A stretch of 63,997 nt of DNA, the filler included, from Mitosporidium daphniae (taxonomy: Eukaryota): assembly GCF_000760515.2 (NCBI RefSeq). It is 44 parts of 44 records of this genome, joined end to end, with 100 filler letters (N's around TTAATTAATTAA, not from the genome) between each part and the next. Parts side by side here need not be neighbours in the genome. Positions count along the whole stretch, not along the records: positions 43,094 to 44,401 come from NW_013546465.1; positions 44,502 to 45,805 come from NW_013546464.1; 42 more parts are not named here. One strand, 5' to 3'. Within the stretch, counting starts at the first letter, position 1, and each line of letters begins with the position of its first letter. Positions 43,094-45,905 of the stretch are shown piece by piece. The position numbers were made by a program, and so were the translations under genes. The notes under the pieces are model-generated. The model had not been told where the DNA came from. It was given only the letters and a program-made list of their open reading frames with translations, and made no database searches.

Positions 43094-43974
43094 TGTTGAC
43101 CTGTCTGAGGGAGTTGTTTCTTTTTGGGTAAACCGCTTAAATGTAGTTTTAAAGCGCCTAGATAGCTTTTAGTCGTTTGGTCTTTTTCTTTAATATCGGT
43201 TTGTAGAAGCAGTAAAATTTCTATAATTGCTTGAGCTTTTTCTAGCTCTTCTGGATCTCTTGTATCCTCTAAATATCTTATAGCTTCTTTCATATTTTGT
43301 TTTATCCTGCTTAGAGAAGCTTTAGTTTCTCCAAGTTTTCTTTCAATATTTAGTTCTAGATTTTTCTGAGCTTGTAGATTTTGTAGATTTTGTAGATTTT
43401 GTAGATTTTGTATATATTCTTGAGCTTTTTCATCTTCTGGATCTTCTAAATCTCTTAGAGCTTTTAGAGCTTCTTCAGCTTTTTTAGCCTGTTGAGCTTT
43501 TAGATATTCTGGATTTTTTAGCTCTGTTAGATATTCTTCATGCGTCTCATATTTTAAATATTGCAAATGTTGTAGATCTTCTTGATTTTTTATATTTTGG
43601 ATCTTTTATATACTTTATATATTTTGGATCTTTTACATCGTCTAGATATTCCAGATCTTTTAGGTTTTTTAAATATTGTAGAGATGTTAGAGCTTTTGGA
43701 TATACTTGTAGAGATGTTAGAGCTTTTGGATATATTTGTAGAGCTATCAATTTGTTTATATATCCTTCTAAAACCTTTATATTTTTTTGATTTTCTGAAT
43801 ATAGTCCTTTTATATCCTCTGTTAGTTGTTGTATATTTTTGTTTTCGTAATTTTCATTATATTCACCATCTGCTAGATGGGGTTGAGTATTTTTTCGCCC
43901 ATTTTAACTTTTAATGAAGGGAGAAAGAGGATAGCAATGAAAGCTACCAGAAATAAAAGTTTTCGGAGCGTCAT
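43094..43974 (-). pseudogene. LPSL-leader secreted low-complexity protein with at least two frameshifts
   Basis: ATG 43974 MTLRKLLFLVAFIAILFLPSL. Protein-like sequence continues in shifted frames (43547-43900, then 43094-43566). 9-bp and 30-bp internal repeats. Confidence 0.65.
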
Positions 43975-45905
43975 TGAAGCAAAAGAGTTGTTAAAAAATC
44001 TAGCATTTTACCGAGTATTTTGCCTCGGAAACTTTGGATCCAATCAAAATTTTAAATTCAATAATTGCTGAAAGGGCAAATTAAGCTCCGAAAATTAATT
44101 ATCAAGGCATTTGTCCAATAAATGCTTTGCAATATTTTATCGAGCGGATATCATTGCGATCGGGGCTGATGTATTCCGTGCTTTAACAACCATACTCGCA
44201 CTCCAAATAATGATCTTTTTAGAGACGCATGCAAAAATACCTTTTCAGCTCTCATTGCAATTAATCAGTCGCCCAAGACACAGGCATCAACATGCCAAAC
44301 TGAAATGGATATCGAAACTTTATTAAATATCGCTTCATTAGCATTTTGAACGGACATAGACGGCTTCCACGCGCAAAGATAACATGCTTTACCTGACACC
44401 ANNNNNNNNNNNNNNNNNNNNNNNNNNNNNNNNNNNNNNNNNNNNTTAATTAATTAANNNNNNNNNNNNNNNNNNNNNNNNNNNNNNNNNNNNNNNNNNN
44501 NATAAATTTTTAAATTGTACTTGCAGATATCCTGGATGTACCTGATGCCTTGGGATCACTCGGTGTCCGAAGGGAATGCCACCGATGTTATGTTGTCACT
44601 GTAAATAAAACATATCCAGCATCATTCTTGTGTTTGCTGAATTATTACCTCATTCGAAGACAAACAAAGGAGTTAAAGAAGGCAATAGTTAAAAACAACA
44701 GAAGAATGATGCTGGATTATTGGAGGAATTTATTGGGACTGATTTTTATAAGGAATTTTTCTAATTAAAAATAAAAAGCACCAAATTCGGCTGCCGGATC
44801 AATAGTTTTAATACCTGTAGCTGCTCCAATGGCAGAAATGAATTTAACAGATACCTAAGAAAAATTTGAATATCCAAACAGTACTCAGTCGGGCTCGGCC
44901 TCAATTACCCGAGACCCTTACTACGAGAAGGTACTAGTAGCGCGAAGCCGAAAAAAAGGAGTAAACAAAAAAGGGCGCACTTTTCTGTGTGTCGCGCTAG
45001 TACCTTCTGATAGTAAGCCGGAACTCGGACTATCAGTAATTCAATATCTACTAAACGTTCGTACAATGGCACACCATAATAACAAGTTGTCAACATCACG
45101 CATCTCACATACGGAAGTCACTGCAGCTTAAGGTAAAAAATTTGAAATGGAGAAGGAGAATAGCATGTTACTTTCAAGTTGCAACCCTCGATTAAATTCA
45201 GTATGCAACCAAGGAAAATTCTAAAACGCATATCTACACAATCCCAAGTACATAAAAAACCTAAAAATGGACTTAAAACGAAACTTTAAGCTGAAAATAT
45301 TTTTTGGCATCTGTCAAGATTCGAACGTTGACATAGCAGATCACCTGGAAAGATATCATTTGCTATCTTCTACCAGAACGTGTTATTAGTTTAATTATTA
45401 ATGACATTATTACGTTACGTTACGTTGCTTAATTTTATGCACTGCCTTTTGTTTTGTTTTATTAATTTTTAATCTCAAAAGTTGTTAATTTGGCAAAAGT
45501 TGATCATCGACCGTAGACTCGCGCCCCAAGTTCAGGTTCCATGTTCCATGTTTCCATACACATTGCTTCAATCCCTCTAAGCCTCATCTAGGGTCATTGA
45601 TGATCAACAGACGCCATAACCACTAGGCTATGGACGCCCAACTTAATTTGATTACGCAAAATGTTTTATGTTACTTTCGCAGTGCTCGCCATACATGCTT
45701 TCTACTTAAGCACAAAAAGAGAGAGAGAGAGAGATGATAATATTAGTTTCCTGAGTGTTTATTTTTCTTAAAACTGAAAAAAAAACGAAAATTTATTTTT
45801 TTTTTNNNNNNNNNNNNNNNNNNNNNNNNNNNNNNNNNNNNNNNNNNNNTTAATTAATTAANNNNNNNNNNNNNNNNNNNNNNNNNNNNNNNNNNNNNNN
45901 NNNNN

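What the first reader, a model, noticed from the sequence alone, without database searches (positions are those of the whole stretch)
43913..44010. A shared promoter plus signal-peptide cassette (…LPSLQ) joined to unrelated protein bodies
Seen: three contigs carry a homologous ~60-nt leader on the minus strand: MTLRKLLFLVAFIAILFLPSL (43974), ..VRRLLFLTAxIAILVLPSLQ (48597) and MNLQKLVFVITLVSIFVLPSLQ (60299). The first two are about 80% identical in DNA. Upstream, TAAAATGCTAG-(T-run)-..GC.TC.ATG is shared by the 43974 and 60299 genes, and a related TAAAACGC-T-run-CAAC..GCATCGATGAAC precedes 27633. Similarity stops just after LPSL: the bodies are repeat-rich soluble proteins in two cases and multi-pass membrane proteins in the others. 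Inference: a portable expression/secretion module that creates new effectors, analogous to Crinkler LxLFLAK headers or PEXEL leaders. LPSL(Q) is a possible cleavage or sorting motif.
Basis: partly seen in the sequence, partly recalled or inferred. Interest (0 to 1): 0.82.

Follow-up and report, generated by a model that had tools for sequence, protein, structure and literature searches.

The report
Shared promoter and signal-peptide gene module
Several otherwise unalignable genes of the Daphnia parasite Mitosporidium daphniae begin with the same stretch of about 145 bases, which is predicted to be a core promoter plus secretion signal and is likely kept alike by copying between fast-evolving family members, a pattern already known from insect effector genes.

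Summary
The window is 44 short contigs of Mitosporidium daphniae, named from protein hits. Three genes (ATG at 43974 and 60299; a 5'-cut gene ending at 48597) share a 22-codon leader ending LPSL(K/Q). It is 67-83% identical in DNA, against 28-47% to four other signal peptides in the window. Two of them, plus a fourth gene (27633), share a block of about 70 nt upstream with TAAAAYGCT and a T-run (3 sites against 0.04 expected). Similarity ends about 73 nt after the ATG.

The bodies show no Pfam, BLAST, profile or PDB match to each other or to anything else. Three more leader-bearing proteins of the species turned up: MDAP_001083, MDAP_001187 and DI09_3p60.

Where two bodies are related, the leader is far better kept: 19 of 19 residues against 27% overall. 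One pair of leaders also shares 11 of 14 synonymous codons (4.6 expected).

I read this as a small lineage-specific family of predicted secreted or membrane proteins. A promoter-plus-signal-peptide module is likely homogenised by recombination while the mature parts diverge fast, as in Hessian-fly salivary genes. Capture of the module by truly unrelated genes is not excluded.

No genome-wide census was possible. LPSL lies inside the signal peptide, unlike PEXEL or Crinkler motifs.

The parts
43975..44044 (-). g43974 upstream block (-1 to -70). It holds GCAAAA, the TATA-like TAAAATGC (44003-44010), GCTAG plus a T-run (43993-44004), CAAC, and GCTTCA just before the ATG. Predicted core promoter and short 5' UTR.
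   Evidence: The BLASTN alignment to g60299 runs to 44044.
43909..43974 (-). g43974 leader, codons 1-22: MTLRKLLFLVAFIAILFLPSLK. Predicted signal peptide.
   Evidence: Kyte-Doolittle values were computed for the other five leaders only.
43094..43908 (-). g43974 body: repeat-rich, K/E/L/Q-rich, no hydrophobic segment. It reads in three pieces: frame 0 to a stop at 43873-43875, a second frame over 43550-43903, then frame 0 again over 43096-43605. Each overlap zone holds a run of six A. The 3' end runs off the contig.
   Evidence: Tandem repeats of 9, 18, 27 and 30 nt. No Pfam family.
48536..48597 (-). g48597 leader, cut at codon 2-3 by the contig end: (N)VRRLLFLTAXIAILVLPSLQ. There is one N at 48568.
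   Evidence: (E 2.5e-8 to a model built without it).
47534..48535 (-). g48597 body: three further hydrophobic segments after the leader, and a C-terminal tail of 11-residue repeats (33 nt x 4.2). The stop codon is included.
   Evidence: The body is homologous to MDAP_001187 (P0004), BLASTP E 2e-12. No Pfam or PDB match.
60300..60374 (-). g60299 upstream block, with TAAAATGC (60333-60340) and GCTAGCAGC plus a T-run (60319-60334). The contig ends at 60377.
60234..60299 (-). g60299 leader, codons 1-22: MNLQKLVFVITLVSIFVLPSLQ.
59301..60233 (-). g60299 body: soluble, predicted all-helical, 332 aa with the leader, one uninterrupted open frame. The public model DI09_353p10 starts at M46 and omits the leader.
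   Evidence: (pLDDT 37, helices only).
27563..27632 (+). g27633 upstream block: GCAAAG, TAAAACGC (27597-27604), T9, CAACAC, GCATCG just before the ATG. The last 45 nt are 62-70% identical to the other two blocks.
   Evidence: BLASTN to g60299 gives 81% over 32 nt, E 3.9e-4.
27633..28468 (+). g27633: a more distant leader, MNTLKILFLVALVFLYVLSKSN (49-58% DNA identity, no LPSL), then a body with at least one strong hydrophobic segment. The 3' end runs off the contig.
   Evidence: No homologue found. No Pfam or PDB match.
15027..15038 (+). GCTAGATTTTTT, a 12-mer identical to that of g43974. It lies 8-17 nt before the two possible ATGs (15046, 15055) of another signal-peptide gene (MKTLITLALILLVRSMLSQS). 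It may be a shared promoter element. That gene's leader is not homologous to the others (30-39% DNA identity).

Best explanation
A block of about 145 bases (some 70 nt upstream plus the first 22-24 codons) is shared by at least four genes of this Mitosporidium daphniae window. It is predicted to be a core promoter with a short 5' UTR followed by a classical signal peptide. It likely marks a small, lineage-specific family of secreted or membrane proteins, whose 5' end is kept alike by selection and by gene conversion while the mature parts diverge until they no longer align.

Shown directly:
- The block is homologous at the DNA level and ends sharply at about +73.
- The bodies fall into at least four classes with no detectable mutual similarity.
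- Within a class, the leader is much better conserved than the body.
- One leader pair is nearly identical even at synonymous sites.

Inferred:
- TAAAAYGC, about 34-41 nt before the ATG, acts as a TATA-like element.
- The leader is cleaved by signal peptidase near LPSLQ.
- Homogenisation is by gene conversion or ectopic recombination.
- Body divergence is driven by tandem-repeat turnover and selection.
- The genes are co-expressed.
For: The module is real and specific:
- nhmmer finds the copy left out of the model at E 2.5e-8 and nothing else in 64 kb.
- BLASTN between the contigs gives only the module as a significant match.
- Leaders are 67-83% identical in DNA, against 28-47% to four other signal-peptide starts.
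- The upstream motif occurs at 3 sites against 0.04 expected.

Promoter reading:
- The upstream identity (62-70% over -45 to -1) equals or exceeds the leader identity, so the conservation is not only at the peptide level.
- No conserved RNA fold: 0 predicted pairs.
- Three other signal-peptide genes in the window (ATG 42093, 55893, 34912) also carry an A/T-rich TATA-like word 30-40 nt before the ATG.

Signal-peptide reading:
- A basic residue at positions 4-5, then 13-14 hydrophobic residues, then P-S-L-Q and polar or charged residues.
- Kyte-Doolittle 19-residue maxima of 1.67-2.08 for the five LPSL leaders scanned; g43974's was not scanned.

Family with a homogenised 5' end:
- g48597 and MDAP_001187 have homologous bodies (BLASTP E 2e-12) at 27% identity overall, with a 90-residue indel, yet their leaders match at 19 of 19 comparable residues.
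- g60299 and MDAP_001083 run about 87% (residues 1-130), about 47% (130-290) and about 92% (300-332).
- DI09_3p60 and MDAP_001187 align for 38 residues and then lose all similarity.
- In the g43974 and g48597 leaders, 11 of 14 identical amino acids use the identical codon. From the genes' own codon usage 4.6 are expected, binomial P 6e-4. Their bodies have no DNA similarity.

Fast body turnover: both bodies carry in-frame tandem repeats of 9-33 nt.

Analogues in print, abstracts read:
- Hessian-fly SSSGP genes have conserved promoter, UTRs and signal-peptide region with highly diversified mature regions, attributed to positive selection plus 'concerted homogenization' (PMC2955719).
Against: - No body similarity links the soluble classes (g60299, g43974, DI09_3p60) to the membrane classes (g48597 with MDAP_001187, and g27633). 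Common descent of whole genes is therefore assumed and not shown. The profiles used had only two sequences and little power.
- A soluble helical protein and a multi-pass membrane protein descending from one gene is a stretch.
- The codon-identity excess is significant for only 1 of 3 leader pairs. The others are 4 of 9 against 3.2 expected, and 6 of 9 against 3.4.
- Unlike the Hessian-fly genes, the two available 3' flanks (g60299 and g48597) show no similarity.
- Only 7 distinct leader-bearing proteins are known to me: 4 in the window and 3. Family size, clustering and expression are unknown.
- The residue before the predicted cleavage site (Q) is atypical by the usual -3/-1 rule (recalled). 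No signal-peptide predictor was available.
Confidence: 0.5

Rival explanations
1. Portable cassette. The promoter-plus-signal-peptide block is copied by ectopic recombination onto unrelated open frames, or onto repeat-derived new sequence. Each body class would then be an independent birth of a secreted or membrane protein, as proposed for the pea-aphid KQY 'cassette effector' families.
For: - The boundary is sharp, at +73.
- There are at least four body classes with no detectable similarity, including soluble against multi-pass membrane proteins.
- Near-identical leader subtypes sit on a 165-aa polar protein (DI09_3p60) and on membrane proteins (MDAP_001187, g48597).
- The g43974 and g48597 leaders are young at synonymous sites while their bodies are unalignable.
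- The bodies are orphans rich in tandem repeats, compatible with new origin.
- The pea-aphid precedent (PMC7495047, abstract read).
Against: - No body has been found with and without the module.
- Related bodies show that extreme body divergence under a constant leader does occur here.
- Similarity ends at different points: at 22-24 residues in some pairs and at 38 in DI09_3p60 against MDAP_001187. This fits variable conversion tracts as well as capture.
- The leader is not a separate exon in the two genes that read through without interruption (g60299, g48597), so exon shuffling is not the route.
Confidence: 0.3
2. No DNA exchange at all. The block would be conserved purely because its nucleotides are functional, as a promoter, translation-initiation context or mRNA localisation signal for ER-targeted messages. 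The genes would be old paralogues.
For: - Non-coding and coding parts of the block are about equally conserved.
- A 12-mer from the block recurs before another signal-peptide gene whose leader is not homologous.
Against: - No conserved RNA secondary structure.
- Constraint at the nucleotide level would have to cover third codon positions over 60 nt in one pair but not in the other two.
Confidence: 0.1
3. Chance resemblance of ordinary signal peptides, or an assembly artefact in which a repeated element was joined wrongly to unrelated sequence in low-quality short contigs.
For: - The contigs are 1.2-1.4 kb, carry single N's, and g43974 has two frame breaks.
- One contig ends inside the leader and another ends 78 nt before the ATG, as expected at a repeat.
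Against: - The E-values and shuffle controls.
- The upstream non-coding conservation.
- The same leader stands in frame on gene models from a 101,558-bp contig of the first assembly (DI09_3p60) and an 875,858-bp contig of a separate assembly (MDAP_001083, MDAP_001187).
Confidence: 0.03

Closest known systems
Hessian fly (Mayetiola destructor) SSSGP salivary effector gene families (PMC2955719, abstract read)
   Same: The promoter, 5' UTR and signal-peptide coding region are conserved at the DNA level, while the mature-protein region is so diversified that members barely align. Homogenisation of the conserved parts is proposed there. The setting is also a parasite.
   Different: In the fly, the 3' UTR and an intron are conserved too, and the genes lie in tandem clusters. 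Here the two available 3' flanks are not similar, there is no intron in the module, and clustering is unknown. Here the bodies also include multi-pass membrane proteins and not only small secreted proteins.
Pea aphid KQY/KHI 'cassette effector' families (PMC7495047, abstract read)
   Same: A highly conserved secretory-signal coding region is joined to divergent coding regions that fall into several groups with no mutual similarity. The authors propose combinatorial assembly of a common signal cassette with novel coding regions.
   Different: The aphid genes are huge, with dozens of miniature exons. The genes here are compact and the leader is continuous with the body. Promoter sharing is part of the unit here.
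Species-specific large gene families of microsporidia with signal peptides or transmembrane domains, such as Nematocida NemLGF1-5 (PMC5423893, passages read)
   Same: Lineage-restricted, rapidly evolving families enriched in signal peptides or TM domains, in the same phylum in the broad sense. Such proteins are found exposed to the host.
   Different: Those families are defined by homologous bodies (profile HMMs) and at least 10 members. Here only the 5' module unites the genes, and I know of 7 proteins. In the passages I read, no shared promoter-plus-leader unit across different bodies is described.
Host-targeting leaders: Plasmodium PEXEL, oomycete RXLR and Crinkler LxLFLAK (recalled, no call)
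   Same: A short conserved N-terminal motif shared by many otherwise different parasite proteins.
   Different: Those motifs lie downstream of the signal-peptide cleavage site and act in a second step, export or host entry. LPSL(Q) is the last part of the hydrophobic signal sequence itself. Nothing conserved follows it in 2 of the 3 window genes.

Membership tests
Classical ER (Sec) signal peptide | Short basic n-region followed by a hydrophobic h-region of about 7-15 residues at the extreme N-terminus | tested here: met
   K or R at positions 4-6, then 13-14 hydrophobic residues. Kyte-Doolittle 19-residue maxima are 1.67-2.08 for the five LPSL leaders scanned, those of g60299, g48597, P0002, P0004 and P0005; g43974's leader was not in the scan.
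Classical ER (Sec) signal peptide | A c-region with small uncharged residues at -3 and -1 of the cleavage site, and actual cleavage | tested here: inconclusive
   P-S-L-Q follows the h-region. S fits -3 if cleavage is after Q, but Q at -1 is atypical (rule recalled). No signal-peptide predictor or proteomic data were available.
Conserved 5' region with hypervariable mature region (Hessian-fly SSSGP type) | Promoter or 5' UTR and the signal-peptide coding region are conserved at the DNA level among members | tested here: met
Conserved 5' region with hypervariable mature region (Hessian-fly SSSGP type) | The mature region is far more diverged than the 5' region in members that are demonstrably related | tested here: met
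   g48597 against MDAP_001187: leader 19 of 19, whole alignment 27%. g60299 against MDAP_001083: a central 160 residues at about 47%, against about 87-92% at the ends.
Conserved 5' region with hypervariable mature region (Hessian-fly SSSGP type) | The 3' UTR is also conserved | tested here: not met
   No significant BLASTN match between the 3' flanks of g60299 (59213-59300) and g48597 (47306-47533). Only this one pair could be tested.
Conserved 5' region with hypervariable mature region (Hessian-fly SSSGP type) | Tandem clustering, and positive selection on mature regions | not testable with these tools
   No whole genome. No DNA for the MDAP genes. MDAP_001083 and MDAP_001187 lie on the same 875,858-bp contig, but their positions are unknown.
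Cassette assembly (pea-aphid KQY type) | The same signal cassette sits on body groups of independent origin | tested here: inconclusive
   At least four body classes show no similarity by BLASTP, hhalign, Pfam or BLASTN. Absence of similarity in fast-evolving orphans does not prove independent origin.
Host-targeting leader (PEXEL, RXLR, Crinkler) | A conserved motif located downstream of the signal peptide | tested here: not met
   LPSL occupies residues 18-21, directly at the end of the hydrophobic core. Identity is at background from nt +85.
Microsporidian large gene family (as defined in PMC5423893) | At least 10 homologous members in one species, enriched in signal peptides or TM domains | tested here: inconclusive
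   7 distinct leader-bearing proteins are known: 4 in the window, plus P0002, P0004 and P0005. The census search could not be run; the queue was full 10 times.

The most novel reading that the evidence does not exclude
An early-branching microsporidian makes new secreted and membrane proteins by recombining one ready-made promoter-plus-signal-peptide cassette onto unrelated or newly arisen, repeat-derived open frames. Secretome innovation in this lineage would then be modular and traceable to a single 145-bp mobile unit.
Probability: 0.3. Interest if true: 0.6.

Novelty: new member of a known kind. Interest (0 to 1): 0.4.

Why it matters
The way microsporidia and their relatives generate fast-changing surface and secreted proteins is poorly understood. 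Mitosporidium sits at the base of the group, before genome compaction. A single recognisable 5' tag would help in three ways:
- It gives a cheap handle for finding the parasite's candidate host-interface genes, which current gene models miss. The public model of g60299 lacks the leader.
- It gives a probable co-regulated promoter to test.
- It offers a compact system in which to ask whether conserved-leader, variable-body families arise by homogenisation or by cassette capture.

It does not change any general principle. The pattern is already known in gall midges, aphids and other systems.

Tried and rejected
- Chance or generic signal-peptide similarity. Rejected.
- A conserved RNA structure in the 5' block. 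0 predicted pairs.
- An intron to explain the first frame break of g43974. The two GT...AG intervals I could see after LPSLK are 36 and 39 nt long. Both are multiples of three, so splicing there cannot restore the frame (my reading). Both break zones contain A6 runs, so a sequencing error or a real frameshift remains open.
- The 50064-51305 repeat frame as a paralogue of the g43974 body. Best BLASTP E is 0.12, so the likeness is compositional only.
- The body of g27633 as a relative of the g48597 and MDAP_001187 bodies. hhalign probability 0.4%.
- Function of the bodies:
  - Pfam gave no family at E of 0.001 or better for all 8 leader-bearing sequences.
  - PDB sequence search gave nothing better than E 0.014.
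  - The ESM Atlas gave no usable hit.
  - The AlphaFold model of g60299 had mean pLDDT 37.3, so I ran no fold search.
- Homologues of g27633. 0 of 633 candidates reached E of 1 or better.
- A scan of JGI metagenome contigs with a degenerate 24-nt leader pattern. It gave one hit (L001) with no ATG or leader context, which I judged a chance match.
- A census of leader-bearing proteins with a 5-leader profile (A3). It could not be run because the queue was full in all 10 permitted tries.
- A look-up of sequencing runs, to check the frameshifts, copy number and expression.
- The whole genome is not held.
- The scan's earlier notes held nothing on this genome. Two analogous notes from prokaryotes were not used.
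Full report
**What the window is.** It is not one stretch of chromosome. It consists of 44 contigs of 1,031-1,566 bp joined by N44-TTAATTAATTAA-N44 linkers. Strand, order and distance between the genes therefore carry no information.

The organism comes from protein hits. It also matches MDAP_001083 of the same species at 66% identity. 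A 2025 paper (PMC12449221, passages read) gives 5.83 Mb and 42.68% GC for this species. It says a new assembly reduced the contig count from 612 to 10.

**The observation.** All three leaders are present as described:
- MTLRKLLFLVAFIAILFLPSLK, ATG at 43974.
- (N)VRRLLFLTAXIAILVLPSLQ, where the contig ends at 48597, two codons into the gene.
- MNLQKLVFVITLVSIFVLPSLQ, ATG at 60299.

A six-frame scan for PSL preceded by a hydrophobic run gave 7 places. Three of these are the leaders. The other four are not at N-termini.

At the DNA level:
- g43974 and g48597 match at 47 of 58 comparable bases in nt 1-63. BLASTN gives 82.8% over 64 nt, E 5.6e-15.
- g48597 and g60299 match at 75.8% over 62 nt, E 1.6e-8.
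- g43974 and g60299 match at 66.9% over 148 nt, E 2e-7. That alignment runs from 70 nt upstream of the ATG to +73.
- The same leaders are only 28-47% identical to the first 66 nt of four other signal-peptide genes in the window.

An nhmmer model built from g43974, g60299 and g27633 finds the left-out g48597 at E 2.5e-8. The next hit in the window has E 0.23.

Identity anchored at the ATG drops to background (2-9 of 21 per bin) from +85 onward.

**Upstream.** g43974, g60299 and g27633 share GCAAA(A/G), 6-8 nt, TAAAA(T/C)GCT, a T-run, CA(A/C)CA, and GC.TC(A/G) directly before ATGA. Identity over -45 to -1 is 62-70%. This is as high as or higher than in the leader (53-67% for the same pairs).

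The word TAAAAYGCT followed by a T-run occurs at 3 distinct sites, against a mean of 0.04 in 100 shuffles. All three are 33-41 nt before a leader ATG.

The upstream part of g48597 is missing because the contig ends. That end, and the end of the g60299 contig 78 nt before its ATG, are what an assembler does at a repeat.

No conserved RNA fold is predicted across the block.

Three other signal-peptide genes in the window (ATG 42093, 55893, 34912) also have an A/T-rich TATA-like word 30-40 nt before the ATG. I therefore read TAAAAYGC as a TATA-like element and the rest as a family-specific extension. This is inference.

The 12-mer GCTAGATTTTTT of g43974 recurs exactly before another signal-peptide gene (15027-15038; ATG at 15046 or 15055). 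That gene's leader is not homologous to the others. Of the 5 distinct GCTAG plus T-run sites:
- two are module copies;
- one is this gene;
- one is the 3' end and terminator of a tRNA gene;
- one (46455) I cannot explain.

**The bodies.**
- g60299 is a 332-aa soluble protein predicted to be all helices. The model has mean pLDDT 37.3, too poor for a fold search.
- g43974 is rich in K, E, L and Q and built of 9-30-nt tandem repeats. It reads in three pieces with two frame changes, and each change zone contains an A6 run.
- g48597 has three further hydrophobic segments and a tail of 11-residue repeats.
- g27633 has at least one strong hydrophobic segment and runs off its contig.

None of the 8 leader-bearing sequences has a Pfam family at E of 0.001 or better. 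Nothing useful came from PDB sequences or the ESM Atlas.

Between body classes I found no similarity by BLASTP, by hhalign or by BLASTN. In one search the only aligned stretch is the leader. The profiles contained only two sequences each, so these negatives are weak.

**More members.** A profile of four leaders, searched against proteins longer than 70 aa, gave 3 proteins at E of 10 or better among 1,066 candidates:
- MDAP_001083.
- MDAP_001187: 287 aa, leader MNVRRLLFLTAFIAILVLPSLQ.
- DI09_3p60: 165 aa, leader MHVRKRLLFLTALIAILVLPSLQ, polar and charged.

That makes 7 distinct leader-bearing proteins. The leader stands in frame on gene models from large contigs of two separate assemblies (101,558 bp and 875,858 bp). 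This rules out a short-contig artefact.

The public model of g60299 (DI09_353p10) starts at M46 and lacks the leader. Annotated proteomes therefore undercount the family.

The census I wanted, a leader profile against all representative proteins, could not be run. The queue was full at all 10 permitted tries.

**What discriminates between the explanations.**
- Where bodies are related, the leader is far better conserved than the body. For g48597 and MDAP_001187, the leaders match at 19 of 19 comparable residues. The whole alignment is 27% identical, with a 90-residue indel and one well-kept transmembrane block.
- g60299 and MDAP_001083 are a mosaic: about 87% for residues 1-130, about 47% for 130-290, and about 92% for the last 33.
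- DI09_3p60 and MDAP_001187 align for 38 residues and then not at all.
- Extreme divergence behind a constant leader therefore does happen in this set, and the end of similarity varies between pairs.
- In the g43974 and g48597 leaders, 11 of 14 identical amino acids use the identical codon. From the genes' own codon usage 4.6 are expected (P 6e-4). The other two pairs show no significant excess: 4 of 9 against 3.2, and 6 of 9 against 3.4.
- A leader that is young at silent sites, joined to bodies with no DNA similarity at all, cannot come from simple duplication and divergence. Some DNA exchange, by gene conversion or ectopic recombination, has moved or homogenised the 5' block.

**Most likely reading (about 0.5).** This is a small lineage-specific family of predicted secreted or membrane proteins. 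Its promoter-plus-signal-peptide block is kept alike by selection and recombination. The mature parts diverge by repeat turnover and, probably, selection.

This is the pattern described for Hessian-fly SSSGP genes, where the authors invoke positive selection and concerted homogenisation (PMC2955719, abstract read). It differs in that the one pair of 3' flanks I could compare is not similar.

**Main rival (about 0.3).** My data do not exclude it. The soluble-against-membrane contrast, and the near-identical leader on DI09_3p60 and on membrane proteins, speak for it. What is missing is any body seen both with and without the module.

**Lesser rivals.** Pure nucleotide-level constraint without exchange gets about 0.1. 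Chance or artefact gets about 0.03.

**The motif.** LPSL(Q) ends the hydrophobic core of the leader: basic residue at positions 4-6, then 13-14 hydrophobic residues, then P-S-L-Q and polar residues. Five of the LPSL leaders score as strongly hydrophobic N-terminal segments; g43974's was not scanned. That is where a signal-peptidase c-region sits. It is not where PEXEL, RXLR or the Crinkler motif sit, which is downstream of the signal peptide (recalled, not tested). I could not run a signal-peptide predictor. Q just before the cleavage point would be unusual (recalled rule).

**Composition.** The three LPSL contigs are among the most AT-rich of the 44: GC 0.305, 0.310 and 0.322. Most others lie near 0.37-0.45, and the species value is 42.7% (PMC12449221). 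The g27633 contig is 0.444.

**In print.** Searches for 'Mitosporidium daphniae' (60 papers) and for 'Mitosporidium' with 'signal peptide' (14 papers) listed no title on such a family. I read only passages of PMC12449221, and these do not mention it. The original genome paper is not held, and I did not see its supplements. I cannot say the family is undescribed there.

**Verdict.** It is a new member of a known kind. Interest is moderate: it gives a handle on the host-interface genes of an early-branching microsporidian, and a compact test case for homogenisation against cassette capture.

Noticed in passing
3333-4890, 4991-6533, 6634-8175, 8276-9812 (also 20950-22381): Four contigs are each a single open frame from end to end (512-519 aa) with no Pfam family. 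Their ends overlap as diverged copies. For example, a '...SYKFTFLK.TC.D..FNIEGHDRE.DLAIVYWL' stretch occurs in three of them, and 'FYFLTYLQEDHAFILSEAGMEI' occurs in two. They look like pieces of at least two paralogous copies of one giant gene that broke the assembly. Contig 20950-22381 has a weak DUF3638 match.
   Followed up: partly
16315-17763 and 48698-49961: Two contigs stand out by composition. The first is 59% GC and holds a full Mutator/IS256-type transposase (PF00872, E 3e-103). The second is 55.5% GC with many single N's. They are probably bacterial or other contaminant sequence in the assembly.
   Followed up: no
59301-60299 (-): The public gene model DI09_353p10 (257 aa) starts at M46 and skips two internal pieces. 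The DNA has one uninterrupted 332-aa frame with the signal leader, so the model looks mis-annotated.
   Followed up: yes
43876-43903 and 43550-43605 (-): g43974 can only be read through with two frame changes, and each zone contains a run of six A. This is either homopolymer error in a low-quality contig or a decaying gene.
   Followed up: partly
50064-51305 (+): An open frame filling the contig, made of ALEALK/LEDQ-type short repeats. It has a weak LED_rpt match (E 0.0023-0.034, far below the cut-off). Its likeness to the g43974 body is compositional only.
   Followed up: partly
15027-15055 (+): GCTAGATTTTTT, identical to the 12-mer in the g43974 promoter block, lies just upstream of another signal-peptide gene with a non-homologous leader. 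It may be a promoter element shared more widely among secretory genes.
   Followed up: partly
26640-26676 (+); 33094 and 34048 (-): tRNA gene 3' ends. At 26640-26676 a GGTTCGAGCCC...GCTAGCCTCG stretch is followed by a T-run. The two minus-strand sites carry GCATCGACCGGG...-type ends. Neither was run through a tRNA finder.
   Followed up: no
42093-42992 (+), 55354-55893 (-), 34912-35511 (+): Three further genes with unrelated signal peptides. The one at 42093 is an S/T/Q/A-rich, mucin-like repeat protein with QANQAS repeats.
   Followed up: no
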